DNA of 64,000 bases from a virus, in the IMG/VR virus record IMGVR_UViG_3300045988_034373, positions 96,001 to 160,000 of that record, one strand, 5' to 3'. The translations under genes were made by a program, and so were the position numbers. Shown here one piece after another: positions 10,910 through 54,549 of the stretch (positions within the stretch are counted from its first letter, which is position 1; every line of letters begins with the position of its first letter). Below the pieces are notes generated by a model that saw only the letters and a list, made by a program, of their open reading frames with translations, searched no databases and was not told the DNA's origin.

Positions 10910-11157
10910 AATTATATTATTTATTCTTATTGGTAATGTTCTTCTTAATGGGTTGTACTAATTCATCTAACATTAGTGGTCCAGATGTTATAGGGACATC
11001 TAAGATGAATGGGGATGTGTACAGGTACACCATTGATGAGCATGAGTATATAAAAATGGGTAATGGCTTTGCACACTCTGGTGCTTGTAAGAAGTGCAAG
11101 AAGGAGTTGGAAAGTACTATCCGTAAAATAGTTAAGGAGGAACGTTCACAATGGTAG
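10906..11157 (+). CDS. small lipoprotein
   Basis: Signal peptide with lipobox: MKLYYLFLLVMFFLMG-C. The mature part is about 66 aa, with CKKC. Confidence 0.65.
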   Translation: MKLYYLFLLVMFFLMGCTNSSNISGPDVIGTSKMNGDVYRYTIDEHEYIKMGNGFAHSGACKKCKKELESTIRKIVKEERSQW

Positions 11158-12241: not shown

Positions 12242-12242
12242 T

Positions 12243-13952: not shown

Positions 13953-14417
13953 ATGCTCAGAGAGCAAATGGGTGCACTTATTAAGCAATCAATGCTTGAT
14001 AAGAATGTAAAGAGAACAGAAGTATTGAGAGCTATCAAGAATGAGTTCTTGGTATACCAAACTGCTAAGGGTGCTAAACCTTTAGATGATGCAGCCGAGT
14101 TTACTATTCTTCGTAAGATGGTAAAACAGAGATTGGACAGTAGAGACCAATACATTGCAGCTGGAAGGAAAGACTTAGCCGATAACGAATCCAAAGAGAT
14201 TCTTGTGCTTGAGTCTTTCCTTCCGAGTGAAGCCTCACCTGAGGAAATTACTAAAGCAATCTATGAGGTTATCTCAGAGAAGGGTTGGGGTGACGGAGAG
14301 ACAGGTCCCCAAATCCCGAAGAAGTGCATGGGAGAGGCTATTAAGTTGGTCAAGGCAAAGCTTGCTAATGTAGATGGTAAACTGTTGGCTGATACAATTA
14401 AGACTTATCTTGTATGA
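13953..14417 (+). CDS. GatB/YqeY-domain protein
   Basis: LRAIKNE ... ILRKMVKQRLDSRDQYIAAGRKDLADNESKEILVLESFLP matches the YqeY family pattern. AGGAG lies 8 nt upstream of the ATG. Confidence 0.75.
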   Translation: MLREQMGALIKQSMLDKNVKRTEVLRAIKNEFLVYQTAKGAKPLDDAAEFTILRKMVKQRLDSRDQYIAAGRKDLADNESKEILVLESFLPSEASPEEITKAIYEVISEKGWGDGETGPQIPKKCMGEAIKLVKAKLANVDGKLLADTIKTYLV

Positions 14418-14800: not shown

Positions 14801-15115
14801 ATGAAAATCGAAGAGAAATTTAAAAAATTCCAACAAGGTGGTGCTGCACCTCAGCCAGGAGCTGAACAAGCAGGAGGAGCACCAGCCGAGGGAGCACCAG
14901 CAGAAGGTGGTGCACCTGCTGAGGGTGGACAAGACCCAATGCAACAGATTCTACAAGTAGCTGCTCAGGCAGTTCGGACACAGAATTGTGAAGCTGCGAT
15001 GGCTGTGTGTCAAGCCCTAATGCAAATCGCTCAAGGTGGTGCTGCTCAGGAACAAGCTCCTCAAGAGGAACCAACTTTTGCAAGGAAAGGTGCTAGACTA
15101 GTAAGAGTAAGATAA
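14801..15115 (+). CDS. small Ala/Gly/Pro/Gln-rich protein with N-terminal KFQQGG motif
   Basis: 104-aa ORF, visibly more GC-rich than its surroundings. It is flanked by the promoter above and the terminator below. Confidence 0.65.
   Translation: MKIEEKFKKFQQGGAAPQPGAEQAGGAPAEGAPAEGGAPAEGGQDPMQQILQVAAQAVRTQNCEAAMAVCQALMQIAQGGAAQEQAPQEEPTFARKGARLVRVR
14876..14929 (+). repeat. imperfect tandem coding repeat (G)APAEG x3
   Basis: gga gca cca gcc gag / gga gca cca gca gaa ggt / ggt gca cct gct gag ggt gga, translating to GAPAEGAPAEGGAPAEGG. Confidence 0.8.
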
Positions 15116-15134
15116 TTAGTCAACAAGGTAAGAA

Positions 15135-15166
15135 GGGGCGTATATTAATTATATGCTCCTTTTTTG
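15135..15166 (+). terminator. intrinsic terminator
   Basis: GGGGCGTATA / TATATGCTCC stem (10 bp including 2 G-U pairs), a 5-nt loop, then TTTTTT. Confidence 0.6.
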
Positions 15167-15179
15167 TTATACATAGTAT

Positions 15180-18100
15180 ATGTCACAAGTAATAAGAAAA
15201 TTTGAGAACTCTGGTAAGATAGAACAATCTAAGCCAGAACTATTCGAGAGAAGTGGCGTTGGTAAGTACAATAAGGCTGATTTAGTTGCTGGACTATATA
15301 GGAACATAGATACCTATATAAAGAATAATAATCTTAGCGGAGACAAAGCAGTTTCATTTAGGAACTCTGCTAACCAGTTTATTAAAGGTATTGAGAGTGG
15401 AACTATTAGTATGAATGGTGATGGTACATTCTCTGATGCAACAGGTAGTATGGCTAGTTCAGGAAAGTTTGATAAGAACTGGATAGGACGTAAGAAGGAC
15501 ACTACAAATAATGCCTTTAATTTAGTTGGTGACTATGCACTAGACTACATCAATCAGATGCAACAATACACTGAGCCAGCAGCTAAACCTAAAGAGAAGT
15601 TCAATACCAACAACTTCTTAACTAAAGAGATTTCTAAAAGATGGTATGGTGGTAACGATATAGATTTCGGTAACTGGTTCAAGAACAGAGGTGAGCAAGA
15701 CCGTAATGCACTACTTGGAGAAATCTTCAATAATGCAGACTATAATCAACTATACCAAGATTATGATTGGACTGACACTGGAATTAACAGTGCAGAAGAT
15801 TTAGCTAATCGCGGAAGAGCATTTAGTACAGCCATTTCTAATAATACATTAGATAATGATGACTATAATACCTTTGCTACATTAGGTGGTAGTGGTTTAG
15901 ATAAGTTCTTGAAGGAGACTTCTATGGAAGCGGCTCCAACACCAGAGCAGGACAAAATGAAGACATGGGAAGCTGAGGCTAGAGCAGCTGGGGCAACCAC
16001 TCCAGAAGCAATCGCTGCATTTGTAAAAGGTAAACAACAGGATGAAGAGGCTACTAACCATGCTATCATTGAACAACAAGCCAAGAGAGATAGTAAGATG
16101 GAGAGGGACGCTTTCTTCAATGATTATGCAGTCAAAAATCCATTCAAAGAGACTATTCAATCAGGATATACTCCTAGCTCTGTGTCATATAAGCCAGAAG
16201 ACTTTGATAAGACTATAAGGGATTTCTATAATAACAATATTGACCAATACCTAAACGATAACCTATCTAGAGATTGGTTTAGGGCTGGTAACACTCAGCA
16301 CATTGCTAATCACATGGATTATCTGATTAATCATCTAAAGGTGAATCTTCCAGATGCAGGTGATGGGTTTGTGGCAATTCCTTCCACATTTGATTACAAC
16401 AATTACACTACAATGGTGTATAATCCAACAACTAGACAATATAAAGAGTCGTCTATGTTGGTAAATGATGCCCTAAGACGTCTTGCAGACGTTCATTATG
16501 ATAGTACTCGTACACCTAAGAGAGAGAATGGTGGTGTGCTTTATATGCAATTTGGAGGAACGTATAGTGCTGGGGCTAACTACAGTAACTATCAACAACA
16601 AAGGGCGCAAGAGAAGAAGACTAAGGAAGAGGAAACCGTCAAGCAGAAAGCTGAATCTAAGGGAAGAACTGTTGAAGAACAACAAATAGCTGATAGAAAG
16701 CCTGGAAGTATTACTAGTGGTGATTGGACTGGTGCTGACTATACTAGACTAGCATCTATAGTTGCAGACATTGGTTCTATTGGTGCTGCCTATGTTCCTG
16801 TATATGGTACAGCTGTATCAGCTGGATTAGGTATAGGTAGTTCTTTAGCTAATTATGGTGCTGACCTGTCAGAAAATGGATTTAAGTTGGGTGACTTAGG
16901 TGGATTAGCTATGAATCTAGGTTTAGATGCAGTAGGTCTAATTCCTGGACTAGGTACAGCAGCAAAGGGCAGTAAGATGCTCAAGACAGCTGTTAAATAT
17001 ATACCTAAAACATTATCCTTATTAGCGGCTTACAACTATACTGGTCCAGCTATAGAGTCTATGAAGAAAGCTATGTCTTCTGATGCTGAACTTACAGTGG
17101 ATGACTGGAGAAATATAGCAGAAGGATTTAAACTTGTACTTCAAGGAGGTAAAGGAATCAAGAGAGGCTACCAAGCTAAGAACCTAAAGAAAGACTTAGC
17201 AACTGGCAACAAGGTTCTTACTACATTAGGGGGTAAGGAGGTATCTGTAACTCCCGCTGAACTATCCGAAATCCGTTCTTATAGGAGGATTGAAGACCAA
17301 CAAGCTGCGCTGCAGTTATTAAAGAAGGATGATAACCTACAACTCGCTGGAGATTTAAATAAGAGGTGGTTCAATCCATCCCGTTATCTTCCCAACTCTA
17401 ATATTAGAGATGAATATGACTTTAATAAGACTGTAAAGAAGAGAACCTCTCAAGGCATAATAGAAGTGCCTAGAGTGTACAGTAACTCAGATAAATATAT
17501 TGCAGCTACCATGCAACGTAGTACTCCTCAAATTCCAGGAATTGATGAGTTGTCAGTAAAATATAACGACTGGAAGTATGGGGTTAAAAAGCCTAAAGCA
17601 AAAGCTAAAGGAAGTAAGACCTCTGATACAAAACCTTTACTAGCTCTTCCAGCCCCAGGTCAAACTCACAGAGTATTTACTATGGGTGGGGGACAACCTA
17701 GAGTACCTCAAGATGTAACTAACTCTTCTAATCTTAGAAAGCCAGGAAGCTATACTGATAGAGCTGTTCCAGTAGGAGGTACCCCAGTACAATCTCCTGA
17801 TGCTAATGCAGTTAGAGCAGTTAATACTATCAACTCTATATTAGAGCCATTTGTTCCTAAATCTAAGAACTTACCTGCTGTTATTCCTGCATCAAGAAAT
17901 GCTGAAAAGGTAGTAGCCTCTCAGACTGTACAGCCCAGTCAAAGATTGGACCAGTTCATTGAGGGGCAAATTCCAGGCAGAAGACAGTATGGTAGGCAGA
18001 GAGCTAAAACTGAGAGAGAATACAGAGATGTATTCCACCCAGCAGCTGAACGAGAGTACAACCAAGTATGGGATGAAGCTGTTAGAGGTAGAAAAGACTT

Positions 18101-19970
18101 TGGATATGAGGAAGTATTCCCTAAGAGAAGTCCATATGCACCCCCAACTCCTACAGAGGTGTATATAGTACCAGAGGGAGCTATGAAAGACCCTAACGCA
18201 AGGTATCTATGGGAGCTTATTAATAAAAAACCTAATACTGCACATATTAAAAGAGATAGCCAACCTCATAAAGTTAAGTCTAAGAAGAAGAAAACTTCAA
18301 AGGATGATAAAGTCACTAAGAAGGCTGAGGGAGGAGTAGTTCAATTTCTACAAGATGGTAAGACTGTAGGTAGAATCAAAGCTAAAGATATGTCTGGTTG
18401 GGACAGAGCACAGGCTTTAGCTAACTATGATTGGATTGCTGATTATGATAGATGGGCATCACAACACGAAGGTCCAGATGATGCTACTGAGTCTTATATA
18501 ATATCATTCAATGGTGGTGAAGATATATATGACCAATTAACATCTAAGACTGGAGATTACTTCGGAGGTAAGTACAATTATTCAGTACAAGACCCATTAG
18601 CTAAACATAGACAGATTACTTTTAGAGGTACTAATCAAGGCTTTGATGATTTAATCAGAAAGGGTATTGTAGGTTATGGTACTACAGAAGGTAATTCTGG
18701 ATTTGATATATATGCTGGTGATAGAACTGGTAATAGAACACTTGCAAGAGGACTATCCGCAGAGGATGTAGCTCGCTTTAACAAGCAGTTAGCAACGAGA
18801 GGAATGGAACTCTATGATAAGGGCAATGGTGCTTATAGGTTAAGAAGATTACAACAAAAACCTACTGAATTACCAGAGGTTGTTGTAACTGCTGATGCAC
18901 CTAAAGCTCCTACGGCTACTAACCCTTCAGCTATTAATCCAGCTGCATCTAAGAAAGGTAAAGGCTTCAATCTTGGTGTAATGCCAGAAGATGTTATCGC
19001 GTTAGGTAGAATGGTAGGTGGATTAGCAGCTAATAACAAGGCAGCTAAATTATATAAGGAAGGTCTAAAACCAACTTTATTAGACACATTTGAGAATACT
19101 GTTCCACTACAAGGTAACTTCCAAGCAGTTACTAATGCTGAACAACAAGCAGGCAATTTAGAATCTGTAGCTGCAAGACCTAGAACTTCTGATGCTTCAT
19201 TGCAATTAGCAGGAGAGTTAGAAGCTAGTGATAGAGCGGGTCAAGCTAGATTCCAAGGTGGTCTACAGGATGCAGAAATGTTCTATAAGACCAGAATGTT
19301 AGGACAGCAAGAATCCGATGCAGCTAAGGCAAGAAGAGTTGATGTGGCTAATAGGAATAGGGCTTCAATGAATCAGATTGATGCAGCTAAGAAGCAAATT
19401 GATGCAGCTAGAGTTACATCTAATTATCAGAATGTTATTGCTCCTTACTTAGCTGGAGTTGAGAACCAATTCGCTCAGAAGAGAGCTATGAATCAACAGT
19501 TAGACATGGAAGAAGCTCAGAGAGAGGCTGAAAGGACTTATTCTCCAGAGTTTGATAGACTAACTAATGATTACAATACAGCCTATAAAGCTTATGGTGC
19601 TGCAAATAAGAATGATTACACTGGCTGGGAGACATCTAACGAGTATAAGTCGTTAATAAATAGAAGAAAGTCCCTTAACGATAATGTATCTCAATTCCTA
19701 TTGGATAGGAGAAGAGGAATTATGGGTTCTCCATATATGTTCCAAGTTAAGAGGAACTCTTCTACCAAGACTCCATATGTTAAGTCTGGAGGTAAGCTAA
19801 GTGCAGCTGACAGAGAGAAGTTACAAAGAGCAAGAGATTTTAATAAGAGATTGCTAGAGGACAATAAGCAGTTCCACAAAGATATTATGGAATCTAAGAG
19901 AGAACATAACAAGTTAATAATGTCTATGTCTTCTCTAACTTCTGAGTTAATAAAGAAAGCAATGTCATGA
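15180..19970 (+). CDS. giant virion-block protein (1596 aa), putative ejected/internal protein
   Basis: Uninterrupted 4.8-kb ORF. It has an N-terminal RKFENSG, a Gly-rich hydrophobic segment (IGSIGAAYVPVYGTAVSAGLGIGSSLANYG...GLIPGLGTAAKG) and a long C-terminal helical/coiled-coil-looking region. No enzymatic motif was seen. Confidence 0.8.
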   Translation: MSQVIRKFENSGKIEQSKPELFERSGVGKYNKADLVAGLYRNIDTYIKNNNLSGDKAVSFRNSANQFIKGIESGTISMNGDGTFSDATGSMASSGKFDKNWIGRKKDTTNNAFNLVGDYALDYINQMQQYTEPAAKPKEKFNTNNFLTKEISKRWYGGNDIDFGNWFKNRGEQDRNALLGEIFNNADYNQLYQDYDWTDTGINSAEDLANRGRAFSTAISNNTLDNDDYNTFATLGGSGLDKFLKETSMEAAPTPEQDKMKTWEAEARAAGATTPEAIAAFVKGKQQDEEATNHAIIEQQAKRDSKMERDAFFNDYAVKNPFKETIQSGYTPSSVSYKPEDFDKTIRDFYNNNIDQYLNDNLSRDWFRAGNTQHIANHMDYLINHLKVNLPDAGDGFVAIPSTFDYNNYTTMVYNPTTRQYKESSMLVNDALRRLADVHYDSTRTPKRENGGVLYMQFGGTYSAGANYSNYQQQRAQEKKTKEEETVKQKAESKGRTVEEQQIADRKPGSITSGDWTGADYTRLASIVADIGSIGAAYVPVYGTAVSAGLGIGSSLANYGADLSENGFKLGDLGGLAMNLGLDAVGLIPGLGTAAKGSKMLKTAVKYIPKTLSLLAAYNYTGPAIESMKKAMSSDAELTVDDWRNIAEGFKLVLQGGKGIKRGYQAKNLKKDLATGNKVLTTLGGKEVSVTPAELSEIRSYRRIEDQQAALQLLKKDDNLQLAGDLNKRWFNPSRYLPNSNIRDEYDFNKTVKKRTSQGIIEVPRVYSNSDKYIAATMQRSTPQIPGIDELSVKYNDWKYGVKKPKAKAKGSKTSDTKPLLALPAPGQTHRVFTMGGGQPRVPQDVTNSSNLRKPGSYTDRAVPVGGTPVQSPDANAVRAVNTINSILEPFVPKSKNLPAVIPASRNAEKVVASQTVQPSQRLDQFIEGQIPGRRQYGRQRAKTEREYRDVFHPAAEREYNQVWDEAVRGRKDFGYEEVFPKRSPYAPPTPTEVYIVPEGAMKDPNARYLWELINKKPNTAHIKRDSQPHKVKSKKKKTSKDDKVTKKAEGGVVQFLQDGKTVGRIKAKDMSGWDRAQALANYDWIADYDRWASQHEGPDDATESYIISFNGGEDIYDQLTSKTGDYFGGKYNYSVQDPLAKHRQITFRGTNQGFDDLIRKGIVGYGTTEGNSGFDIYAGDRTGNRTLARGLSAEDVARFNKQLATRGMELYDKGNGAYRLRRLQQKPTELPEVVVTADAPKAPTATNPSAINPAASKKGKGFNLGVMPEDVIALGRMVGGLAANNKAAKLYKEGLKPTLLDTFENTVPLQGNFQAVTNAEQQAGNLESVAARPRTSDASLQLAGELEASDRAGQARFQGGLQDAEMFYKTRMLGQQESDAAKARRVDVANRNRASMNQIDAAKKQIDAARVTSNYQNVIAPYLAGVENQFAQKRAMNQQLDMEEAQREAERTYSPEFDRLTNDYNTAYKAYGAANKNDYTGWETSNEYKSLINRRKSLNDNVSQFLLDRRRGIMGSPYMFQVKRNSSTKTPYVKSGGKLSAADREKLQRARDFNKRLLEDNKQFHKDIMESKREHNKLIMSMSSLTSELIKKAMS

Positions 19971-21781
19971 GAATAACTTCAAATATAGATAAGCTACAAC
20001 AGGGTGGAGGTATTCCACCCTTTGTTAGCTATACTAATGTTCCAAGACCTCAACCCACTGCCCCTTATAGTACATCAGATACTAAACAAGCAGCTGGAGA
20101 AGAATCAGAAGGAGGGTTTGGTTTACTAGATAAGAACATGGTGAAGATGCTTTATGAGAAGGGCTTACCAAGTGATGTGGAGCAATTCTTAGACCAATCT
20201 GGGTTGTTCTCTGAATCCATAATGTCTAATCCATTTGAAAAGACAAACGGAGCTGCTCAGTATAAAGCATTATTAAAGATATTACCTAAGATAGCTATGA
20301 ATAAGGAAGAGTACAATAGAGCTATACAAGAAGCTACTAAGAATAATGCTCTTAAAGAAACAGCTATTGATACAGATGGCAGAGTATTTGCCATTAGCCC
20401 AGACGGACAAGTTACTAAGAAATTTATAAGCCAGTTAGAGGAAGGGGAACAGACTCTAACAGTTGGACAAATGGCTGAGAATAGAGCCTATAGTCAAGGT
20501 TTGGCATTTAACAGTAATGCTATTACAGCTATTGCTAACAGTACAAGCATTGAGCAAATAAATAAGACTATATGGGAAGCGATTAAGAATTTAGGTTCCA
20601 ATACAAGAGCCAATGAATACTTTAGGTCTAAGGACGAAAGGAAAGCTAAGGCTGGAATTGACAAACTATTGGAAGAAGGAGCTGATGGTGTTTATAAGAT
20701 TAACTCTAAGTCTATAACCCAAGATGCTCAAGCTAAATATGCTTTAAACTATATATTATCAACATTACCATCTAATCAGAAGGTGTTATTACAGGATTAT
20801 GCAAGAAAGTCTGGATTAGATTTGAAGACTGGTCCACTACAAATTATCACTAGTATGATACAATCTGGTATTAGTTCTACAGAAGAAATGGGAGTTAGTT
20901 ATGACAAACAAGCTACCAATGGTGCTAATACTGATGCAAATGGTAATAAGAAGACTAGGGCATTTGATATTCCTATGATGATTGTAACTGGTGATGGTCT
21001 TCCTAAAGAGAATGCCAGAATTAGCTTTGGAAGTAATTATGCTATTGATGTACAAGCACAAAGATTGCCATTCATTCCAGGTAGTGATGGCAAGCCTATT
21101 GGTCCGACTTCCTTAATGGGGGCTTTAAGTGGTCAGTTAGGTAGTGTAGTTAATAAAGATGCTGTACACGTTGGTAACCAAAGACTTGATGCTACTAAGC
21201 TAAATCAACTATACTACGATGGTACTGGAGTGTCTACAATGGAGTTACCTTATAAGTTGGATGAGAATGGACAAGCAGTTCCAGACTTTGATGTTATAGG
21301 TGCTTATAAGGCAGCTGTAGATGCAATCAATAAGGAAGGTAAGGATGTTACTAAGGCTCAAGTAAATCAAATATTCCAAGAACGAGGATTGAATAGATAT
21401 TTTAATGAAGATGGAAGTTTAAATAGGGATAACTTTATGAGGTTTGCTGGTATATCAGTTATTGGCGATGATGAAACCTTTGAACACCCTGATGATAACT
21501 CCGACTTCTTTATGCCTATTACTGATAATAGGTTGACAGCACAGATAAGTGCAACACTAGGTACTAAGTCAAACCCTATGGATATGGGAGACCTATACAG
21601 AACTATTGCTTATGTACCTATTTATGACTCTCCGAGTCTAGCAGGTGCAGCATCTGGTAACTTCTCATGGATTAAGGATGAGGGGGCTATGATGGAAATA
21701 GCAAAAGAACAGCAACTCCGTAACGCTAGACAGGCATATAACAACAATATAACTAAAAGTCAATTATTAAATGGACAATAA
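19967..21781 (+). CDS. virion-block protein (604 aa), function unknown
   Basis: ATGA overlap with the upstream gene. N-terminal DKLQQGGG motif. Confidence 0.75.
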   Translation: MRITSNIDKLQQGGGIPPFVSYTNVPRPQPTAPYSTSDTKQAAGEESEGGFGLLDKNMVKMLYEKGLPSDVEQFLDQSGLFSESIMSNPFEKTNGAAQYKALLKILPKIAMNKEEYNRAIQEATKNNALKETAIDTDGRVFAISPDGQVTKKFISQLEEGEQTLTVGQMAENRAYSQGLAFNSNAITAIANSTSIEQINKTIWEAIKNLGSNTRANEYFRSKDERKAKAGIDKLLEEGADGVYKINSKSITQDAQAKYALNYILSTLPSNQKVLLQDYARKSGLDLKTGPLQIITSMIQSGISSTEEMGVSYDKQATNGANTDANGNKKTRAFDIPMMIVTGDGLPKENARISFGSNYAIDVQAQRLPFIPGSDGKPIGPTSLMGALSGQLGSVVNKDAVHVGNQRLDATKLNQLYYDGTGVSTMELPYKLDENGQAVPDFDVIGAYKAAVDAINKEGKDVTKAQVNQIFQERGLNRYFNEDGSLNRDNFMRFAGISVIGDDETFEHPDDNSDFFMPITDNRLTAQISATLGTKSNPMDMGDLYRTIAYVPIYDSPSLAGAASGNFSWIKDEGAMMEIAKEQQLRNARQAYNNNITKSQLLNGQ

Positions 21782-40008: not shown

Positions 40009-40999
40009 GAACTGTACTTCTACATTGATAATTGGGGGGCTGGAATTTAAAGTCCAGTCTCCCAACATCAATGGGAATCCTCCAATTAAAGACATTATAC
40101 AGAACATAATTAAAGTACATGGTTCTGAAATTTCTAAAGCATTATCTGACCCAAAAGGTACGTATGAAGTACTTAACATCAATGATATATCACATCTAAG
40201 AGGTAATGCTACATTTAAAGATATTACTGAACACCTAAACAGTTTAGGCAGACAGTACATACCAATGAGAGATAGTTTAAGGGTATTAATATCCAAACTA
40301 AACAAAATTGTTCCAGAGTCTGAACAGAACATTCTTTGGGTTGCTTCACCCGTAACACTGAACGATGTAAAAGTACCTAGTGTAAATGTTAGTACTAACG
40401 GAGATTTAGTTATTTTAGACTCCAACAACCTTAATAAGGTATATAACACACTAAGAGAGTATTTCTATGCTAAGACTATTAATACTCCTGAAAAGATTAA
40501 CCAAATCCTAGCTTTCATAGGAAGTATTGGTAAGGCAACTGATAAAATGAAGTTAAAGTCTGATGTATGGATGGCTAATCTACAATCTAAGTTTACTGAG
40601 ATGAGAAAGAATCCTGCAACGGCACTACACTATATTGTTAGTGATGATATTGTGAACGAATTAGTTGACCTATCTGGAATGAGGTCAGAACTTAATACCT
40701 TACTTAGAACACTAAGCAATGTTCAACTAAATGAGGGTAAGGGTAGACAGTGGTGGTTAGAGTGGGACGGTAATGCTGGAACCTATACTAATAGGAATGG
40801 TCAGCAATTTAGGTTCAACTTTAAAGAAATGGACACTACTATTACAGAATACCTAAAAGAGAAAGGTATTGAGGCAAATGAAGAGGAAATTAAAGCTACA
40901 AAGGCTGTCCTATTAAGTGGAATATCACAAGGACATCCATTGTCAAATGATGAGATATACGATTTATGGGACGAATTTACTAGAAAAGGTTGTGAGTAA
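39998..40999 (+). CDS. hypothetical protein (333 aa)
   Basis: The ORF overlaps the RNAP end by 11 nt. No motif recognised. Confidence 0.65.
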   Translation: MSAKNCTSTLIIGGLEFKVQSPNINGNPPIKDIIQNIIKVHGSEISKALSDPKGTYEVLNINDISHLRGNATFKDITEHLNSLGRQYIPMRDSLRVLISKLNKIVPESEQNILWVASPVTLNDVKVPSVNVSTNGDLVILDSNNLNKVYNTLREYFYAKTINTPEKINQILAFIGSIGKATDKMKLKSDVWMANLQSKFTEMRKNPATALHYIVSDDIVNELVDLSGMRSELNTLLRTLSNVQLNEGKGRQWWLEWDGNAGTYTNRNGQQFRFNFKEMDTTITEYLKEKGIEANEEEIKATKAVLLSGISQGHPLSNDEIYDLWDEFTRKGCE

Positions 41000-42648
41000 T
41001 GGCTTGTATTAATCATAATGATATAACATATAAAACACTTCTAGAACTTTCTGGATTAACCCAGTTAGAACTTGATGCAAAGGTAAGGAAGACACTGGAG
41101 ACTACTGGGGAATACCCATTCATCGAGCAAGTAGTGTCTTCTGATACAATTCCCGCATTAGTAAAGAAGTATAAGTTGGTAAAGTCTGGCGATAGGTATG
41201 TTGCTAAAGATGCTGACTTAGAGGGAGTGGATGCCCCTTATCTAAATAGCATCTATAGAGATTTAGAGATAACAATAACTCCTCTATTCGATGGAGAGTC
41301 TTTAATAGACATTAAGAAACGTGCTACTATAAATAGAGATTTAGAAGTAGAAGAGGATTATGTTGGACCATACACTGAACCCAATAGCAATATATTTCCT
41401 CAACCTATTCAGGTTATTAATGGGAATTATATCTATCAGCATGATGGTAACTATTACATATCAAAACACAAAGTTGGAAGTTATACTGCATTGAGTAACC
41501 TACCTAGAACTAAGAATCTAAAGACAGCTTATTCTAAAGCTACTCCTGTAAATACTAAGTATGAGGTTAATAGGGATGTTCTTAGATTCATATCTGACTA
41601 TAGTAATCTATTATCTGCAGGGCAGAATGCTATATACAATACCAATTCAGAACTTCCACCAATTATATCATATTATGGCAATTTTAACTATCCTAAGTTC
41701 AAAGTTGATACAACTCTTAAAGGCAAGTATGACATTAGTGAAGAAGGTACTATCCTACTAAATCCAAATAAGATTGGTACAGAACCTAAGGCATTAGAAA
41801 GAGCTATCCTTGAGGCTGAGGGGTTCTATAGTGAGGAGGAGATACTTGAATCACTAGACAGACTCACTAATCCGATTAAAGTGGAAACATTAAAGGTAGG
41901 TAATAACCAATATCTACTAAGGTCTACTAATAAGGATAACAAACTTAGCAATTATTATCCAGAGCTTTCTAATGGTAATGTAAGGATTAACAAACTTGAA
42001 GCACTGTTAGATAGATTAACTGACTTATATGGAGTTAAATTCAATAGGGTTACAAGTTCCGAATTAAGGCTTGGAGGGTTTAAAGATATTATTCCAGATG
42101 CTACCAGAGTTAATGCCTTTATATTAAACGGAGAAATCTACATCAATACTGATAATGCTAGTGACGATGCACCTATACATGAGTTATCTCATATGTTGCT
42201 AGGCTCATTAAAGTCTACCGACTATGACCTATATTCTGCATTAGTAAACTCAGTGGAGAGTTTAGATGACTATGATTCTAGGTTAGAAGAGTTCCCCAAT
42301 AGAGCTAGAATGGATGCTAATGAGGAGATATTCGTAGACCTGTTTGCCAGACACTTTACAGAGAATTTGGAATTACCAGTTGATGCTAATCTAATGGATA
42401 GGGCAGAATATGAAATTAAGAGAAATATTGACTCAGCTATCTTCCCTAATGAAAGTACAACTAAAGTTAGTCTAAATAGTATTAGTGGTAAATCATTCTC
42501 TGAAATCATGGACTTATTTGGAACATCTATTAATGAAACCACAATAGCTAATGCCTTTAATGGTAACGAATCAGGAACTAACAGACGACTAGCTAATATT
42601 AAAGAAGATTTATTAAAACAAGGATTATTAAAAGAGTATTGTGAATAA
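40999..42648 (+). CDS. protein with HExxH zinc-metallopeptidase-type motif (549 aa)
   Basis: DDAPIHELSHMLLG (HELSH at nt 42178-42192). TAATG overlap with the upstream gene. Confidence 0.6.
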   Translation: MACINHNDITYKTLLELSGLTQLELDAKVRKTLETTGEYPFIEQVVSSDTIPALVKKYKLVKSGDRYVAKDADLEGVDAPYLNSIYRDLEITITPLFDGESLIDIKKRATINRDLEVEEDYVGPYTEPNSNIFPQPIQVINGNYIYQHDGNYYISKHKVGSYTALSNLPRTKNLKTAYSKATPVNTKYEVNRDVLRFISDYSNLLSAGQNAIYNTNSELPPIISYYGNFNYPKFKVDTTLKGKYDISEEGTILLNPNKIGTEPKALERAILEAEGFYSEEEILESLDRLTNPIKVETLKVGNNQYLLRSTNKDNKLSNYYPELSNGNVRINKLEALLDRLTDLYGVKFNRVTSSELRLGGFKDIIPDATRVNAFILNGEIYINTDNASDDAPIHELSHMLLGSLKSTDYDLYSALVNSVESLDDYDSRLEEFPNRARMDANEEIFVDLFARHFTENLELPVDANLMDRAEYEIKRNIDSAIFPNESTTKVSLNSISGKSFSEIMDLFGTSINETTIANAFNGNESGTNRRLANIKEDLLKQGLLKEYCE

Positions 42649-47934: not shown

Positions 47935-48498
47935 TTAGTCTTTCTTCTCTACATATTCAGGTTCTCTTTCATCCTGCTGCTTTAGATAAGTGAACATTCT
48001 CTTACCTAACGCCTTATAGTCTTTCTCACTCTTTGATTTAGAAGCCCTCTTAGCCATTCTGATTAGAGTTCTTGTATTCTTTCTACTAAAGATTCTCTCT
48101 CCTCCTTCTAATTCCATTTGAGTGGAACCATCAGGAGCAATTACCTTCATTTTGGGTAACTCTTCATCCTCTTCAATATCAAGTTCATCTCCCTCTTTAA
48201 TACCAGAGCCTTGATTAACTTCTAATACAAATTGTACACCATCTTCCTCAGCTATATTCTCATTCTCAGGTTCTCCCTGATATACTGATATTACTTCCAT
48301 ATCTTCATTAATGAAAATGATGTCTAGTGGAATTTTAGTATCTTTCATCCAGAATCCTACAGTCTGAGGCTCCTCGAAGAAGAATAACATTCCTTCATCA
48401 TCTTTCATTTCTGTAACTCCTTGTAGACCTTTCATTCTTTCCTCTTCAGTCCTAGCACAAGTTACATTATACTCTCTGTCTCCTATTTCAATCTTCAT
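47935..48498 (-). CDS. DUF192-domain protein with a charged C-terminal extension
   Basis: ARTEEERMKGLQGV...EGMLFFFEEPQTVGFWMKDTKIPLDIIFINEDMEV matches the DUF192 (COG1430) pattern. Confidence 0.7.
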   Translation of the reverse strand: MKIEIGDREYNVTCARTEEERMKGLQGVTEMKDDEGMLFFFEEPQTVGFWMKDTKIPLDIIFINEDMEVISVYQGEPENENIAEEDGVQFVLEVNQGSGIKEGDELDIEEDEELPKMKVIAPDGSTQMELEGGERIFSRKNTRTLIRMAKRASKSKSEKDYKALGKRMFTYLKQQDEREPEYVEKKD

Positions 48499-49862
48499 TA
48501 TTCAACTGTATTTAATAGTCCTGTGTTATCAACTGTATTCTCAAGAATCTCATGTACAAGTAGTTTACCAGCTTCAATAGCAGCTTCGTCAGAACCGTCT
48601 TGCATTAGTTTCTCCAATTGCTTAGTAACCTCAAGATTGAAGATTATCTCTTCTCTCTCTACTTCTGCGTGTTGCTTGATGTCTCCACCTTTCTCTTCTG
48701 TAATAACTGGAATACCTTTAGTAGTTACCTCTTCAAACTTCTCATCCACATTCTCTAAGTGATGTTTATGAGCGTGTAGAGCACCATCTGGAATCACATT
48801 AACTGCTCCTCCATTTTTAAATCCAGCTACCTCTTCCATTCTAACCTCTTCTTGAATCTTCTTTCTCTTCTCTTTCTGTCCTTTAGATAGTTTAACTACT
48901 CTCTTAGCGAAGTCTTTATCCATCTTTAAGCCAGACTTACCAGCTCTTACTGTATTTTGCTGATAACCCCCATTTAGTTGTAATTGAGTTCCAAGTCCAA
49001 GTAAAGGATTGTTAGAAGCTGCGAATGCCATTTGGGCTTCATCAGCTATATCACCCATTTTGACTTGTTGCATCTGAGCATTGTGTATTTGTCTATTAGC
49101 TTTGTTCCTTGCTCCACCACTAAGTAATCCATACTTCTTACCACTCTTAGTAAGAGCATCATCTACAGTAGATTGAGTTCCACCATAAGCAGAACCTACT
49201 TGTTCAAATGCTTCATTATCCTTAGTAATAGTATCGGCTTTCTTAGCTCCAATAGCATTAACCAATCCAATTGGAGTTAGTTTAAGAAACTTACTATCTA
49301 ATATCTTGTCCGCTGTAGTCATTTGGTCAGTTCCAACTCCCATAGCTGTTAATCCATCTGATAACATTCCACCTACTTTCATAACACCACCGATAATAGT
49401 ACCAACTCCAGGTATAGCAGATACAGCATTAGCAGCAGCATCATAGCCTTGATTTAGTCCAGTAGTTAGTGCTGATTGTTCTTTCTGGGGAATTGGACTT
49501 CCAACTACATCAGCTATACCTCCAGCCACATTCATGGTATTACCAATCTTAGCTTTGCTAAATATTCCACTATTAGGAGTAACAGTAGAGGAGTTCCCAC
49601 CAAACCTCTTTATGTCCTGTATAGCCTTATTAGAATCTCTGTTGAATTTCAAGGACATACTTAATGGGTCTCCCATCTTAGCGTTAAAATCAATTAAGCT
49701 GTTAGTCGGAGCCATTATTTGCTCAGCTGATTTACCAAAGTCAGCAGCCCAGTCTTTTCCCATTAAATTCTGATAGACTGGTGTCCCATTGTTTTGTGGA
49801 ATGGTATAGGGACCCCATGTTGAAGTCCCTCCCCACTGGTATCTTTTAACTAGTTTACGCAT
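48498..49862 (-). CDS. virion-block protein (454 aa), Gly/Ala-rich, with N-terminal KRYQWGG motif
   Basis: Its start overlaps the upstream gene by 8 nt. Internal FKNGGAVNVIPDGALHAHKHH. Confidence 0.7.
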   Translation of the reverse strand: MRKLVKRYQWGGTSTWGPYTIPQNNGTPVYQNLMGKDWAADFGKSAEQIMAPTNSLIDFNAKMGDPLSMSLKFNRDSNKAIQDIKRFGGNSSTVTPNSGIFSKAKIGNTMNVAGGIADVVGSPIPQKEQSALTTGLNQGYDAAANAVSAIPGVGTIIGGVMKVGGMLSDGLTAMGVGTDQMTTADKILDSKFLKLTPIGLVNAIGAKKADTITKDNEAFEQVGSAYGGTQSTVDDALTKSGKKYGLLSGGARNKANRQIHNAQMQQVKMGDIADEAQMAFAASNNPLLGLGTQLQLNGGYQQNTVRAGKSGLKMDKDFAKRVVKLSKGQKEKRKKIQEEVRMEEVAGFKNGGAVNVIPDGALHAHKHHLENVDEKFEEVTTKGIPVITEEKGGDIKQHAEVEREEIIFNLEVTKQLEKLMQDGSDEAAIEAGKLLVHEILENTVDNTGLLNTVE

Positions 49863-52800
49863 AACTTACGATATATAATGTTTTTAAAGCTGTTATTATA
49901 GCTAACTCGTCACCAGTATATCTCACTTTAATCTTTATGTACTTATCCCTAATTCTAGTCTCCTTTCTTTCATTAGACCATTTATTAACATCCAATGACA
50001 AGAAATCAGCACTATAACCTCGGTCCCTTAATTCAGATGGAATGTCAGAATTACTAGTAATATTTAGAGCAGTCATACTCTCTGGTAATGGATTGTTAAC
50101 TAGGTTAAGAGGTGGGTATGTATTACCATCCTTATCCTTAACAGTCCAAGCTAATTCATTCTTAGCCCAATAAGTTATAGAGGGTATTTGGATATCCCAC
50201 TTATCTTCTAAGTAGTCCATGTTACCATTTATTCTACCATACTCCATAACCTCATACCATTTACCATTTTGAGCTAGTACATTTGTATATCCAGCTGCTA
50301 TAAGTGAGCTATATCTATCTTGAGTTATCTCTTGTAAATATCTCTTCTTAAAAGGACATGCCTTGACATGAGTAGCTATCTTAAATTCATTTAGTTGGCT
50401 ATCATGCACAATCTCTGAACCAGATATTGATTGGTAGTCTCTACCAGCTGATGTCATTGATTGGTAATGGTCTTCAATATCGTTCAGACTATCTACCCTT
50501 GAATACAATAGTGGGAACATAACTGACATATCCTTGTACTTAGTAGTACTGTACAATATGTCTCTTTGTTCTGGTATAACATCCAAGTAATCATGATTAT
50601 AAACTATATCTGCACCATTATATTGGTATAGATGCTTAGTAGCCTCTTGCCTAAAATACATATTCTTTTTGTCTTTGGCAAAGTTATATACTTCTCCAAC
50701 AACTTCAAAATGGAATGATTCAGGTTGGGTCTTATTACTTATAATCTGTAAGTTATTAAAGATTTTATGTACTGATGGATTATCAACTACAATAAATTCC
50801 AGCTCAAATGGATGTTGCTTACCATACCAATAGCAAGGACTAATTGGCTTTCTAGTAGGCATTAATCCAGCTTGACCATGTTTCCAGAATGAAGTAGTTA
50901 GTAAGTCATACCTCATCTTAGTAACTACAGTTACATTAGAGTATAATGTCTTTACTACATTTCTAACTTCACCTTCAACCAAATCAGTTCCTTGATTATA
51001 TACTACAGCTTTAATAGGTATTGTCCACCTACTATCTCCGACTGAATTGGCATTGACTGATACCTGATTACCATTAGTAATGAAGAACTTATTTCTAACC
51101 CTATCGTCAGCAATACTATACTCAATGTTAGAACCGCTAATATCAAGATTTAGTTGCAAGTTACCTAACTTAGCTTTACCATCTACTACAGTTAGTACGT
51201 TATCAACTACTGCACCACCCTGCATACTAATAAGAGGATAGTTAGAAGTTATCTTAGTAATTGTCTTAGATGTGTTTCTATCAAAACTAAAGAAGATGTT
51301 GTCAATATTCTCAGAATATGATGGAACCCATGAGTAGAATGTTACAAACTTCTGCATAACTTCATTGTAGCATAAATTCCATACATTCTCTTCCAATGTA
51401 TTAACATCATCATAGAATGTAAACATCACATCTTGCTTAAATCTATTATAGTGAGTTTTAACGTTCCTAATACCAATAATTGGAGTCTTCTCTTTCTCAG
51501 TAAGTGAGATATTGTCATTTAAGAACTTCTGTACTTTAAAGTCTGAGATAACCTCGAACAGTTGTCCATTAGTTCTCCAAATCTTCTTCCCGACTGTATC
51601 CACTCCATAGACGTAATAGGGAGTCTTGATGACACTCTCTGACCACTGAGTACCGAATGTATCAGACAGCATTTTTGGATTCTCTGGAAGTACGTTAGAG
51701 GTGTTTATGAAGATATTTCCACCTGCACCTTCACCTGCAACGGCTCTTTCATTGACTGGTATCAAAGCAACGCCATGTTCAAATACACAGATAATGCTAC
51801 CAAACCATTCAACTAGCTTAACTATACTACCATAAGTCAATGGATAGTCCCTATAGTTCATTAATTTGAATACTCTATAACCATTCTTAAATGAGTCATT
51901 GACATTAATGTCAGAGTACATTACTCTAATATGGAACTTATTCTTAATAGCTGGAACATTTGGCAGTTCATAGTAATACTTATCAGATGTAGTAGAGTTA
52001 ATACCACCATTTATAACAAATGATTCTGGTATTTTAGATTCACCAGTAACTGACATAGCTTGTAATGGATAGAATCCTCTAGCCTTACCAGTTAATCCTA
52101 ACTCTGAAGTATATGACATATCAACACTTCTCATAGATAGGTTGACATTGCTACATACTTTAATAGTAACCCAGTGTCCCATCTTAATGGCATTTACGTC
52201 ACCTCTGTTGATTTTACCATTCTTCTCGCTATCACCTATTGTATAGTTATCCTTCCATGACATTTGGTCTACAATATCATCATTTATAGGAGCTGCTGAG
52301 TCTTGGAAGTTTCTACACATTCTATGTGTATAGTTACCTATATAGCAATCTCCTCTAAACAGGTTCTTAGCTATCATAGTATTTCCATCCTCATCTAAAT
52401 CATCCCATAACATTCTGTTACACATAGCATAGAATGCAGATGAATCCTCATACCTAATTTCAAAGTAGGTATCTAATAGGTTTTCTTCATAGTTAGGAAT
52501 CTTAATATCAATAAGACTCATCTTATTAGTATTATATCCCTCTAGTCCTATGTAAGGTCCCCAACTTCCTCTTAATAGGTTACGAGCATTAGAAGACTTA
52601 TTTGTATAGTTATAGTAAGATACTCTCCATGCTTCTTCAGCTTCTCCAGCCCTTGCACTAAATAACTGCTTCTTACCCTTTAATGCCTTAACATTATCAC
52701 CAATAGCCATAATGTTATATGTCTCATCTTGGGTAGAATTATTAGTAACGTAGGATAGGTTGTAGAAATGAGTACCACTTCTGTCAAAGTATTTCTTACC

Positions 52801-54546: not shown

Positions 54547-54549
54547 ATA

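What the first reader, a model, noticed from the sequence alone, without database searches (positions are those of the whole stretch)
14825..20008. Shared N-terminal [KR]-[FLY]-[QE]-x-[GS]-G motif in four virion-block proteins on both strands, with related internal GG repeats
Residues 7-14 of four proteins carry the motif:
- FKKFQQGG (14801 gene; nt 14825-14842 encode the KFQQGG core)
- RKFENSG (15180 gene; nt 15198-15215 encode KFENSG)
- DKLQQGG (19967 gene; nt 19991-20008 encode KLQQGG)
- KRYQWGG (- strand gene 48498-49862; nt 49827-49844 encode RYQWGG)

Related internal copies occur in the 1596-aa protein (ENGGVLYMQFGG, AEGGVVQFLQDG, KSGGKLS), in the 454-aa protein (FKNGGAVNVIPDG), and in a degenerate form at the C-terminus of the 104-aa protein (ARKGARLV).

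A short positional motif shared by otherwise dissimilar proteins suggests a common handling step. Candidates are a capsid-targeting or packaging signal, a docking peptide, or a maturation cleavage site. The double-glycine form invites the cleavage idea, and an HExxH protein is encoded in the same block.
Basis: seen in the sequence. Interest (0 to 1): 0.65.

Follow-up and report, generated by a model that had tools for sequence, protein, structure and literature searches.

The report
Shared peptide tag on phage cargo proteins
Four proteins that a gut crAss-like phage probably carries inside its particle and injects into its host all begin with the same short conserved peptide (…I-x-K-F/L/Y-Q-x-G-G), which looks like an undescribed shared address or processing tag that can now be tested directly.

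Summary

The motif is kept in orthologues down to about 20-30% identity, with different codons, including recoded TAG for the Gln. In the 604-aa family it lies in the most conserved stretch of the protein, yet AlphaFold models that stretch as disordered.

A matrix trained on one family alone finds the N-termini of the other families. The internal copies are conserved too. In the very large family of the 454-aa protein, the core Φ-[KQ]-x-G-G marks module junctions about once per 440 residues.

The window is a distant crassvirus (muzzle, ring 1, ring 2 and capsid Pfam hits). In relatives the four genes form one collinear block right after the muzzle gene, where crAss001 encodes its ejected cargo proteins.

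- **Best reading (0.4):** an uncleaved docking or targeting peptide, an amphipathic helix capped by Q-x-G-G, shared by the non-enzymatic ejection proteins.
- **Main rival (0.25):** a double-glycine-type processing site.

The HExxH link is not supported. No peptidase family was detected, and the HExxH domain also occurs in phages that lack the motif. I found no description of this motif in the searched literature.

The parts
14801..15115 (+). 104-aa small cargo-module protein. It has the N-terminal motif, a Pro/Ala/Glu/Gly linker, a helix ending ...IAQGG, and a basic C-terminal motif.
   Evidence: ORF. Nine orthologues all begin M-[KR]-I...[KR]-F-(M)-Q-x-G-G and end ...P-T-F-A-R-[KN]-G-[AS]-[KR]-L-[VR]-R-V-[RK].
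14801..14842 (+). N-terminal motif MKIEEKFKKFQQGG (core KFQQGG = 14825-14842).
   Evidence: (PSSM 15.3 bits, best non-self hit in the window).
15077..15112 (+). C-terminal basic motif FARKGARLVRVR (type 2: [KR]-x-G-x-[KR]-L).
   Evidence: Conserved in orthologues. It resembles site C of the 1596-aa family.
15180..19970 (+). 1596-aa protein with a glycine-zipper/hydrophobic segment (about res 520-610) and a coiled C-terminal part. Probable membrane-inserting ejection protein.
   Evidence: No Pfam or PHROG hit. Nine orthologues aligned.
15180..15215 (+). N-terminal motif MSQVIRKFENSG (degenerate S-G form).
   Evidence: Orthologues: MSQAIRKYQTGG, MSQVIRKFEDGG, MAQVIRKYQEGG, MSQAITKLQEGG, MSRVIKKLAEGG.
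16524..16559 (+). Internal tandem copy, site A: ENGGVLYMQFGG.
   Evidence: Aligned column block [KR]-x-G-G-x-Φ...Φ-Q-x-G-G in 9 orthologues.
18324..18359 (+). Internal copy, site B: AEGGVVQFLQDG.
   Evidence: Aligned in 9 orthologues as x-G-G-Φ-Φ-x..Φ-Q-x-G.
19776..19802 (+). Internal copy, site C: YVKSGGKLS (type 2).
   Evidence: K-x-G-[GTS]-K-L-[ST] conserved in orthologues.
19967..21781 (+). 604-aa protein with a folded body of unknown fold and a disordered, conserved N-terminal 54 residues.
   Evidence: - 55 homologous clusters.
- AF2 gives pLDDT <50 for residues 1-54 and 80-90 for the body.
- Foldseek against PDB finds nothing.
- BFVD returns only uncharacterised phage proteins.
19967..20068 (+). 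N-terminal motif MRITSNIDKLQQGG plus its conserved extension GIPPFVSYTNVPRPQPTAPY.
   Evidence: Contains the most conserved 12-residue stretch of the family. 49 of 53 full-length clusters carry [KR][FLYMH]xxGG in the first 30 residues.
48498..49862 (-). 454-aa protein encoded directly after the muzzle gene, at the position of crAss001 cargo protein C1/gp45. It has a glycine-zipper segment (about res 110-180) and a conserved C-terminal domain, NVIPDGALHAHKHH....
   Evidence: 4,682 clusters at 90% identity; 1,296 clusters at 50%.
49827..49862 (-). N-terminal motif MRKLVKRYQWGG.
   Evidence: Kept as MRKLVKRYQWGG or MRKRIQKY[QR]NSG in 31 of 41 IMG/VR relatives, although the next ~100 residues are replaced.
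48783..48821 (-). Internal junction copy FKNGGAVNVIPDG, immediately before the conserved C-terminal domain.
   Evidence: 65 of 141 diverse family members have a PSSM site within 14 residues before the NVIP[DE]G box. Examples: KFAEGG, KFQNGG, KFKEGG.
49855..54546 (-). Muzzle protein (context: it identifies the virion type and the cargo module).
   Evidence: Pfam crAss_MUZ 2.4e-27 and crAss_MUZ_C.
47935..48498 (-). DUF192 protein, a constant member of the module (function unknown).
   Evidence: Pfam DUF192 2.2e-26. Same position in all relatives.
40999..42648 (+). No demonstrated connection with the motif.

Best explanation
**What it is.** The motif is a short linear recognition peptide. Its consensus is M-x-[IV]-x(1-5)-[IV]-x-K-[FLY]-Q-x-G-G: an N-terminal amphipathic helix of about 10 residues, capped by Q-x-G-G and usually followed by a flexible Pro/Ala/Gly-rich linker.

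**Who carries it.** It marks the non-enzymatic internal proteins of a crassvirus-like virion, which are encoded in one module right after the muzzle gene:
- the protein at the C1/gp45 position
- a ~100-aa adaptor-like protein
- a ~1,300-1,700-aa glycine-zipper protein
- a ~610-aa protein

**How it most likely works.** The peptide is not removed. It docks onto one common partner inside the particle; candidates are the tail-barrel/muzzle lumen, the portal or the inner capsid surface. This would recruit these proteins during assembly and/or hold them N-terminus-first, ready to leave ahead of the DNA. The same core (Φ-[KQ]-x-G-G) reused at module junctions would give multi-module cargo proteins several attachment points.

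**Shown here:**
- the motif's reality, conservation, N-terminal position and helical periodicity
- its disorder in the monomer model
- its restriction to this gene module.

**Inferred:**
- that these proteins are packaged (by synteny with crAss001 gp45-gp50)
- that the motif binds a partner
- which partner that is.
For: 1. **Virion type.** The window encodes crassvirus muzzle, ring 1, ring 2 and capsid proteins.
2. **Gene order.** In relatives the order is muzzle, C1-position protein, DUF192, ~100 aa, ~1,300-1,700 aa, ~610 aa, then the giant proteins. crAss001 encodes its mass-spectrometry-detected cargo gp45-gp50 at the same place (PMC10172136).
3. **Conservation.** The motif is kept in all these families across 19-60% identity.
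4. **Survives domain replacement.** It survives replacement of the adjacent N-terminal region of the 454-aa protein.
5. **Conserved but disordered.** It lies in the most conserved stretch of the 604-aa family, yet AF2 models residues 1-54 as disordered with pLDDT <50. This is typical of a partner-binding linear motif.
6. **Helical periodicity.** Hydrophobic residues at -10, -6 and -3 give an alpha-helical hydrophobic moment 6.8 SD above shuffles. There is no beta periodicity.
7. **Structural precedent.** In crAss001, cargo protein gp45 is held by short ordered segments. A helix (res 214-245) binds the ring proteins. An unassigned 14-residue helical segment sits at the muzzle in six copies, thought to be N-terminal gp45. 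Ejection is proposed to run N to C (PMC10172136).
4. **No peptidase.** No peptidase family was detected in any window ORF scanned.
9. **Functional precedent.** N-terminal packaging signals exist in T4 internal proteins and in P1 DarB, whose first 30 residues suffice (PMC3012670; PMC9024508).
Against: - No direct evidence of binding, and no partner identified.
- The giant enzyme-like proteins of the same block (2896, 3178 and 1539 aa) lack the motif. It therefore cannot be a universal encapsidation signal.
- Only about 11-17% of 150 diverse members of the 454-aa family start with it.
- The variable motif positions show no concerted change among proteins of the same genome. Co-evolution with one shared receptor might have produced such a change.
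- Several different proteins would compete for the 6-12 sites of a muzzle or ring receptor.
- G-G at the end of an amphipathic leader, and the location at module boundaries, fit a protease site equally well.
- That the four proteins are virion components rests on synteny only. No sequence or profile homology to crAss001 gp45 or gp46 was detected.
Confidence: 0.4

Rival explanations
1. **Maturation cleavage site.** The amphipathic leader plus G-G is recognised by a protease, either phage-encoded and unrecognised or from the host. The protease removes the 9-15-residue N-terminal leader. It also cuts the multi-module proteins at the internal Φ-[KQ]-x-G-G junctions, during assembly or after ejection.
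For: - The G-G pair is nearly invariant (35 of 38 at each position), with conserved residues only on the N-terminal side: K at -4, Φ at -3, Q at -2.
- Leader length is narrow, 9-15 residues.
- In the 454-aa family the core occurs about once per 440 residues, precisely at module boundaries. Some proteins end 5-6 residues after it.
- Analogy from my own knowledge: double-glycine bacteriocin leaders are amphipathic helices ending in G-G. Adenain, ASFV pS273R and Ulp/SENP proteases cut after G-G, and SUMO-2 ends ...FQQQTGG.
- Packaged zincin-like domains are predicted to process packaged proteins in other phages (PMC5512222), and an HExxH protein with invariant H-E-x-x-H...D/E-E is in the block.
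Against: - No C39, C48, C5, S49/assemblin or other peptidase family was detected in any window ORF scanned.
- The HExxH protein has no peptidase assignment.
- The HExxH domain is equally present in crAss001 gp47 and FpV4 gp32, which lack the motif.
- The crAss001 paper does not use the words proteolysis or cleavage (0 occurrences).
- crAss001 gp45 residues 425-552, which contain three x-G-G sites, are traced as one continuous chain.
- Hydrophobic spacing relative to the putative scissile bond (-5, -8, -12) differs from the double-glycine leader consensus (-4, -7, -12, -15; own knowledge).
Confidence: 0.25
2. **Post-ejection function.** The basic amphipathic N-terminal helix acts in the host envelope. 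It would bind membrane or a periplasmic/host factor, as the N-terminal TonB/Tol boxes of colicins do. This would start insertion or translocation of the channel-forming ejection proteins.
For: - The peptide is basic and amphipathic.
- It is followed by disordered Gly/Pro/Ala-rich linkers.
- Two carriers have glycine-zipper hydrophobic segments typical of membrane-inserting ejection proteins.
- crAss001 gp45/gp46 are proposed to form the trans-envelope channel (PMC10172136).
- A relative's large glucosaminidase-domain protein starts with a near-copy, MKVIPKLQQGN.
Against: - Lipid-binding helices do not usually need an invariant K-Φ-Q-x-G-G.
- Internal junction copies and the copy in front of a folded C-terminal domain are hard to explain this way.
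- No host partner is known.
- Nothing here tests it.
Confidence: 0.15
3. **Structural punctuation inherited by module shuffling.** The motif is a helix-cap or turn element at the start of mobile protein modules. It was spread among cargo genes by duplication, fusion and fission, and it has no common binding partner or enzyme.
For: - Modules flanked by the core are inserted or lost between relatives. For example, MT835470's 568-aa protein has an extra domain between KLQKGG and KFAEGG.
- An internal stretch of the 981-aa protein (KKAQQGMRFVSYNPVSNP) resembles the 604-aa N-terminus (KLQQGGGIPPFVSYTNVPRP).
- There is no concerted evolution within genomes.
Against: - A mere hinge would not keep K, Φ and Q, nor be the most conserved stretch of a protein while disordered.
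- It would not sit at a nearly fixed distance from Met-1 in four to six unrelated proteins.
- It would not survive exchange of the neighbouring domain.
Confidence: 0.12
4. **Chance or compositional coincidence,** sharpened by a regex fitted after the fact.
For: The regex was designed after seeing the four copies. Loose Φ-x-x-G-G is not enriched over shuffles in individual Gly-rich proteins.
Against: - An independent PSSM recovers the other families' N-termini.
- The result is replicated in two further complete genomes and six more loci.
- 49 of 53 clusters of the 604-aa family keep the motif.
- Control phage sequence gives 1 hit per 31,000 aa.
Confidence: 0.01

Closest known systems
Capsid targeting sequence (CTS) of phage T4 internal proteins (IPI-III, Alt)
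   Same: A short N-terminal peptide shared by otherwise unrelated packaged, injected proteins. It is sufficient to load foreign proteins into the head (PMC3012670; PMC9024508).
   Different: - No sequence resemblance.
- T4 loads through a scaffolding core, and the CTS is cut off by the gp21 prohead protease (own knowledge).
- Crassviruses have no known prohead protease.
- The present motif also recurs inside proteins at module junctions.
N-terminal packaging signal of phage P1 DarB
   Same: The N-terminal ~30 residues direct a large injected protein, and a reporter, into the capsid (PMC9024508).
   Different: It is known for one protein only, it is not a motif shared by several proteins, and its sequence is unrelated.
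crAss001 cargo protein C1 (gp45) docking segments
   Same: - Same gene position, right after the muzzle.
- A glycine-zipper segment.
- A basic N-terminus followed by Φ-x-x-G-G (MAKKKIKRRGKMPPNIFDTGG).
- Short helical segments bound to the ring proteins, and an unassigned 14-residue helix at the muzzle.
- Proposed N-to-C ejection (PMC10172136).
   Different: - No detectable sequence or profile homology.
- crAss001's other cargo proteins lack the motif.
- Φ-x-x-G-G is not statistically enriched in gp45.
Double-glycine leader peptides of bacteriocins / C39 peptidase-containing exporters
   Same: An N-terminal amphipathic helical leader ending in G-G (own knowledge).
   Different: - Different hydrophobic spacing.
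- The leader here is shorter (9-15 versus 15-30 residues).
- No C39 peptidase or ABC exporter in the window.
- Those leaders serve export, not virion assembly.
Encapsulin cargo-loading peptides
   Same: A short terminal peptide on a flexible linker docks diverse cargo onto the inside of an HK97-fold shell (own knowledge).
   Different: They are usually C-terminal, the consensus is unrelated, and no evidence here points to the capsid protein as the receptor.
Propeptide / multi-site processing of ejection proteins in giant phages (phiKZ, SPN3US) and G-G-specific viral proteases (adenain, ASFV pS273R)
   Same: Many internal proteins share one short recognition site, at N-termini and internally (PMC7411985 abstract; the rest from own knowledge).
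   Different: Those phages encode an identifiable prohead protease, and their site is S/A/G-x-E. No protease was found here.

Membership tests
Crassvirus-type virion (Crassvirales-like) | Muzzle protein, paralogous tail ring proteins R1/R2, and a crass-type major capsid protein. | tested here: met
   Pfam hits: crAss_MUZ 2.4e-27 and crAss_MUZ_C; CrAss_Ring_1 1.9e-7, CrAss_Ring_2 1.8e-6 and Crass_capsid 1.1e-9.
Crassvirus cargo protein C1 (crAss001 gp45) | Sequence or profile homology to gp45. | tested here: not met
   BLASTP best E 0.61. hhalign of the C-terminal-domain profile against gp45 gives probability 0.2%. No PDB sequence hit.
Crassvirus cargo protein C1 (crAss001 gp45) | Gene directly downstream of the muzzle gene, plus a Gly-rich hydrophobic (putative transmembrane) segment. 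| tested here: met
   Gene order. Segments compared.
Crassvirus cargo protein C2 (crAss001 gp46) | Homology of the 604-aa family to gp46. | tested here: not met
   hhalign of A1 against gp46 gives probability 0.1%. BFVD gives only weak hits to uncharacterised crAss-like proteins.
Packaged / ejected virion protein (any phage) | Physical presence in purified virions. | not testable with these tools
   The phage is uncultured. The inference rests on synteny with crAss001's mass-spectrometry-detected cargo.
T4-type capsid targeting sequence | The N-terminal peptide is sufficient to load a reporter into the capsid and is removed by a prohead protease. | not testable with these tools
   Only the shared N-terminal position and its restriction to internal-protein genes were shown.
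Double-glycine leader peptide | G-G at positions -2/-1 of an N-terminal amphipathic helix. | tested here: met
   G-G in 35 of 38 peptides. Helical hydrophobic moment z = 6.8.
Double-glycine leader peptide | A cognate C39 peptidase domain or ABC exporter encoded nearby, and hydrophobic residues at -4, -7, -12 and -15. | tested here: not met
   No peptidase or ABC family in the window ORFs scanned. Hydrophobic positions are -5, -8 and -12 relative to the bond after G-G.
Zincin-like metallopeptidase of polyvalent proteins (for the HExxH ORF) | HExxH plus a downstream third ligand, and membership of a peptidase family or fold. | tested here: inconclusive
   - Invariant H394, E395, H398, D439, E442 and E443.
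- 7 of 28 homologues are fused to ART-PolyVal.
- No Pfam peptidase hit.
- Foldseek against PDB gives best E 0.24.
Protease processing site (any) | Mature proteins begin after the site. | not testable with these tools
   Needs proteomics or Edman sequencing.

The most novel reading that the evidence does not exclude
Crassvirus-like phages of this large gut lineage may use a modular peptide 'address code'. One 12-15-residue helix-Q-x-G-G tag, reused at N-termini and between modules, would load and order a whole set of ejection proteins in the capsid/tail lumen. That would be a phage counterpart of encapsulin cargo-loading peptides. If the tag is transferable, it would allow chosen proteins to be packaged and injected into Bacteroidales.
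Probability: 0.25. Interest if true: 0.8.

Novelty: new variant of a known kind. Interest (0 to 1): 0.6.

Why it matters
How crassviruses load several megadaltons of cargo protein into head and tail, and in what order they release it, is an open question. The crAss001 structure resolved only short anchoring segments and left one unassigned (PMC10172136).

A short, conserved, shared peptide on the ejection-protein set gives a concrete handle:
- It can be mutated, fused to reporters, searched for in virion or VLP proteomes, and docked in silico against portal, ring, muzzle and capsid oligomers.
- The phage lineage is extremely abundant in human gut metagenomes, with thousands of protein clusters. 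Metaproteomic tests are therefore feasible even without a cultured host.
- If the peptide proves to be a transferable packaging tag, it would be useful for delivering proteins into gut Bacteroidales.
- If it proves to be a cleavage site, it would reveal a maturation protease in a phage order where none is known.

Tried and rejected
1. **Nucleotide-level signal** (Shine-Dalgarno-like GGAGG, promoter, RNA element). Rejected: Gly and Gln codons vary and TAG-recoded Gln is used in relatives. The promoter/terminator scan was at background.
2. **Homology of the 454-aa protein or its C-terminal domain to crAss001 gp45, and of the 604-aa family to gp46.** Not detected.
3. **Extending the motif to crAss001 gp45.** By eye, AYGG, AFGG and FAYGG flank the cryo-EM-resolved segments. 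However, Φ-x-x-G-G is not enriched over shuffles, so I do not claim it.
4. **Function of the 604-aa body by fold.** No PDB neighbour. BFVD returns only uncharacterised phage proteins.
5. **Identifying the HExxH protein as a protease.** Pfam, PDB sequence search and AF2+Foldseek all gave no assignment.
6. **A peptidase anywhere in the window.** None found by Pfam.
7. **DUF192 as a clue.** The literature holds no function.
8. **Concerted within-genome evolution of the variable motif positions,** expected if all copies track one receptor. No signal: observed 0.278 against 0.279 permuted. The sample is small.
9. **The search for related loci with the 604-family alignment.** It failed for lack of a conserved block. 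p-crAssphage is not in the phage collection.
10. **Literature searches** for a described motif or newer crassvirus cargo structures. Nothing beyond PMC10172136.


Full report
**What the window is**

The 64-kb window (36.6% G+C) is part of a crassvirus-like phage genome.
- The 1563-aa ORF 49855-54546(-) matches the Pfam crassvirus muzzle families.
- ORFs 58719-59408(-) and 59408-60082(-) match tail ring proteins 1 and 2. The truncated ORF at 62926-63981(-) matches the crassvirus capsid family.
- The left part carries replication and nucleotide-metabolism genes: family A DNA polymerase, ThyX, NMNAT-like, NUDIX and others.
- The only GenBank phage relatives are two unannotated human-faecal scaffolds, MT835470.1 and MT835492.1. 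Flavobacterium phages FpV4/Fpv3 match faintly.
- In metagenomes the lineage is very common. The 454-aa protein alone has 4,682 clusters at 90% identity and 1,296 at 50%.

**Check of the observation**

All four N-terminal copies are exactly as described.

That expression was fitted after the fact, so I used two independent tests.

1. A position matrix built only from N-termini of 604-aa-family homologues:
   - ranks the 104-aa N-terminus as the best site in any other window protein;
   - in the complete relative MT835470 places the N-termini of four other proteins among its top hits.
2. A generic pattern, [KR][FLYM]xxGG, was counted in three genomes:

| Genome | N-terminal hits | Internal hits |
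|---|---|---|
| window | 3 | 0 |
| MT835470 | 3 | 3 |
| MT835492 | 4 | 2 |

   - Binomial P is 1e-5 to 5e-4 per genome.
   - Nearly every hit lies in the same few proteins.
   - About 31,000 residues of crAss001 and FpV4 contain one hit, and it is internal.

Conservation is at the protein level. Gly and Gln codons differ between copies. Relatives that read TAG as Gln place TAG at the conserved Gln.

**Conservation in orthologues**
- **604-aa family:** 49 of 53 full-length clusters, down to 24% identity, keep the motif. It lies in the most conserved 12-residue stretch of the whole protein.
- **~100-aa protein:** nine of nine orthologues begin M-[KR]-I...[KR]-F-(M)-Q-x-G-G.
- **1596-aa family:** eight of nine have it (MSQAIRKYQTGG, MSQVIRKFEDGG, MAQVIRKYQEGG and others). 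The window's KFENSG is the most degenerate form.
- **454-aa protein:** 31 of 41 IMG/VR relatives start MRKLVKRYQWGG or MRKRIQKY[QR]NSG, although the following ~100 residues are a different sequence. The tag therefore survives exchange of its neighbouring region.

Aligning 38 peptides on the G-G pair gives I(-10)...I/V(-6)-x-K(-4)-Φ(-3)-Q(-2)-x-G-G.
- Counts are K 30/38, Q 28/38 and G 35/38.
- The helical hydrophobic moment is 6.8 SD above shuffles, and there is no beta periodicity.
- The sequences are related, so that z-score is inflated. The i, i+4, i+7 spacing nevertheless recurs in all families.
- AlphaFold2 with a 37-sequence alignment folds the 604-aa body confidently but leaves residues 1-54 below pLDDT 50. 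A stretch that is both the most conserved and unstructured in the monomer is typical of a partner-binding linear motif.

**Internal copies**

In nine orthologues of the 1596-aa protein (19-55% identity), three sites align:
- [KR]-x-G-G-x-Φ...Φ-Q-x-G-G (window residues 449-460)
- x-G-G-Φ-Φ-x..Φ-Q-x-G (1049-1060)
- K-x-G-[GTS]-K-L-[ST] (1533-1541)

The last resembles the conserved C-terminus of the small protein ([KR]-x-G-x-[KR]-L-x-[KR]). I treat it as a second motif type rather than a degenerate copy.

In 150 diverse representatives of the 454-aa family:
- the core Φ-[KQ]-x-G-G occurs 209 times in 92,391 residues;
- it sits at module boundaries;
- 65 of 141 members have it directly before the conserved NVIP[DE]GALHA[RH]KH domain;
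- inserted domains are bracketed by it;
- a few proteins end five or six residues after it.

Only about 11-17% of those representatives carry the N-terminal form.

**Which proteins carry it**

In MT835470, MT835492 and four metagenomic relatives the genes are collinear: muzzle, 454-type protein, DUF192, ~100-aa protein, ~1,300-1,700-aa protein, ~610-aa protein, then giant proteins of 2,700-3,400 aa. A fifth contig, L057, keeps the same order from the DUF192 gene onwards, but the muzzle gene lies off the contig end. The window lineage has inverted part of this block, which is why the copies lie on both strands.

This is where crAss001 encodes gp45-gp50, the cargo proteins found in virions by mass spectrometry (PMC10172136).
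- The 454- and 1596-aa proteins have Gly-zipper hydrophobic segments like gp45.
- I could not detect sequence or profile homology to gp45 or gp46. Cargo status is an inference from synteny.
- The giant proteins of the block carry AAA_30/helicase-like and PD-(D/E)XK domains and lack the motif.
- In MT835470 two further proteins start with it:
  - a very basic 275-aa protein next to the terminase genes (MATKFQQGG, with several internal copies);
  - a 981-aa protein with a glucosaminidase domain, in near-form (MKVIPKLQQGN).

**Mechanism**

The data establish a selectively maintained recognition peptide restricted to the non-enzymatic internal or ejection proteins. They do not show what recognises it.

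I favour an uncleaved docking or targeting peptide (0.4) for these reasons:
- It is a short amphipathic helix on a flexible Pro/Ala/Gly-rich tether.
- crAss001 cargo is demonstrably held by such short segments on ring proteins, and by an unassigned 14-residue helical segment at the muzzle, with N-to-C exit proposed.
- No peptidase family is found in any window ORF scanned.
- N-terminal packaging signals have precedents in T4 and P1.

Points against it:
- The motif is absent from the giant cargo proteins.
- Several proteins would compete for few sites if the receptor is the muzzle or the rings.
- There is no concerted within-genome evolution of the variable positions.

The main rival is a processing site (0.25).
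- In favour: an invariant G-G after a conserved amphipathic leader, with recognition residues only upstream, reused at domain boundaries. This is what a polyprotein-type site looks like. It recalls double-glycine leaders and G-G-specific viral and Ubl proteases (own knowledge).
- Against: no protease was found. The hydrophobic spacing differs from the double-glycine consensus. The crAss001 structure traces a chain through three x-G-G sites.

Seven of 28 homologues are fused to ART-PolyVal, which suggests a polyvalent-protein-type zincin (PMC5512222). However:
- it has no peptidase assignment by Pfam, PDB sequence search or Foldseek;
- the same HExxH context occurs in crAss001 gp47 and FpV4 gp32, which lack the motif.

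It therefore gives no specific support to cleavage.

Lesser rivals are a post-ejection membrane or host-factor function (0.15) and a structural punctuation element spread by module shuffling (0.12). Chance is effectively excluded.

**Comparison with what is known, and novelty**

Functionally the nearest things are the T4 capsid targeting sequence and the P1 DarB N-terminal signal. Structurally the nearest are the short docking segments of crAss001 gp45. Formally the nearest are double-glycine leaders and encapsulin cargo-loading peptides.

None shares the sequence. None combines a shared N-terminal tag on several proteins with reuse at inter-module junctions. No such signal has been reported for crassviruses in the literature I could search.

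I rate it a new variant of a known kind, with interest 0.6. The motif is solid and gives a direct experimental handle on crassvirus cargo loading. Its mechanism is still open, and its carriers' presence in virions is inferred.

Noticed in passing
L056, L057, L058 (whole loci); MT835492.1 (L063-L065): Relatives read TAG as a sense codon (Gln) in their late genes. With the standard code MT835492 yields 24,240 aa of ORFs; with TAG as Gln it yields 38,000 aa. TAG occupies the conserved Gln of the motif (KY*SGG, RF*EGG). The window itself shows no such recoding.
   Followed up: partly
window 14801-47878 (+) versus 47935-63981 (-): The cargo block from the small protein to the 1539-aa protein is inverted relative to muzzle/C1-position/DUF192. 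In MT835470, MT835492, L056, L058, L060 and L061 the whole module is collinear on one strand.
   Followed up: partly
window 47935-48498 (-): A DUF192 protein (Pfam 2.2e-26) with a basic C-terminal extension sits between the C1-position gene and the small protein gene in every relative examined. The searched literature gives no function.
   Followed up: partly
window 40999-42648 (+): HExxH protein with invariant H394/E395/H398/G402/Y412/D439/E442/E443.
- Its C-terminal ~215 residues recur in ~355-aa proteins and in proteins fused to ART-PolyVal.
- A similar HExxH context closes crAss001 gp47 and FpV4 gp32.
- It has no peptidase assignment by Pfam or Foldseek.
   Followed up: yes
window 21771-30461 (+), 30472-40008 (+), 42648-47267 (+): Giant ORFs of 2896, 3178 and 1539 aa.
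- The first has an AAA_30/SF1-helicase-like P-loop.
- The third has a PD-(D/E)XK nuclease domain.
- The 3178-aa ORF has no Pfam hit.
- A regex search found no DxDGD RNA-polymerase motif.
   Followed up: partly
window 8573-9223 (+) and 9816-10424 (+): Two ORFs each match part of the Metallophos profile (positions 5-116 and 45-190), with a 75-aa ORF and a gap between them. This could be a split or interrupted phosphoesterase gene, or two paralogues.
   Followed up: no
window 11151-11711, 12210-12785, 13953-14417, 5534-6061, 44-838 (+): Auxiliary genes: NMNAT-like cytidylyltransferase, NUDIX, YqeY, CYTH and a PNKP-type phosphatase. The relative L062 also has an NAD synthase upstream, which suggests an NAD+ salvage/repair set.
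   Followed up: no
MT835470.1 106500-107327 (-) and 113887-116832 (+): Two extra motif carriers lie outside the window's span.
- A 275-aa very basic protein next to the terminase genes starts MATKFQQGG. It has several x-G-G sites, each followed by Lys/Arg runs.
- A 981-aa protein with a glucosaminidase domain starts MKVIPKLQQGN and follows a small transmembrane (holin-like) ORF. It could be a virion lysin or an unusually large endolysin.
   Followed up: partly
IMG/VR and Logan contigs of relatives: Contigs of this lineage cluster around ~100 kb and ~180-190 kb. These could be two genome sizes or head-to-tail assembly duplicates; I did not examine which.
   Followed up: no
window 14801-15115 (+): The small protein's central helix carries a conserved Cys pair (N-C-E-A-A-M-A-V-C-Q-A-L-M-Q-I-A-Q-G-G). 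The helix itself ends in Q-G-G, so this 104-aa protein has three G-G-capped elements.
   Followed up: no
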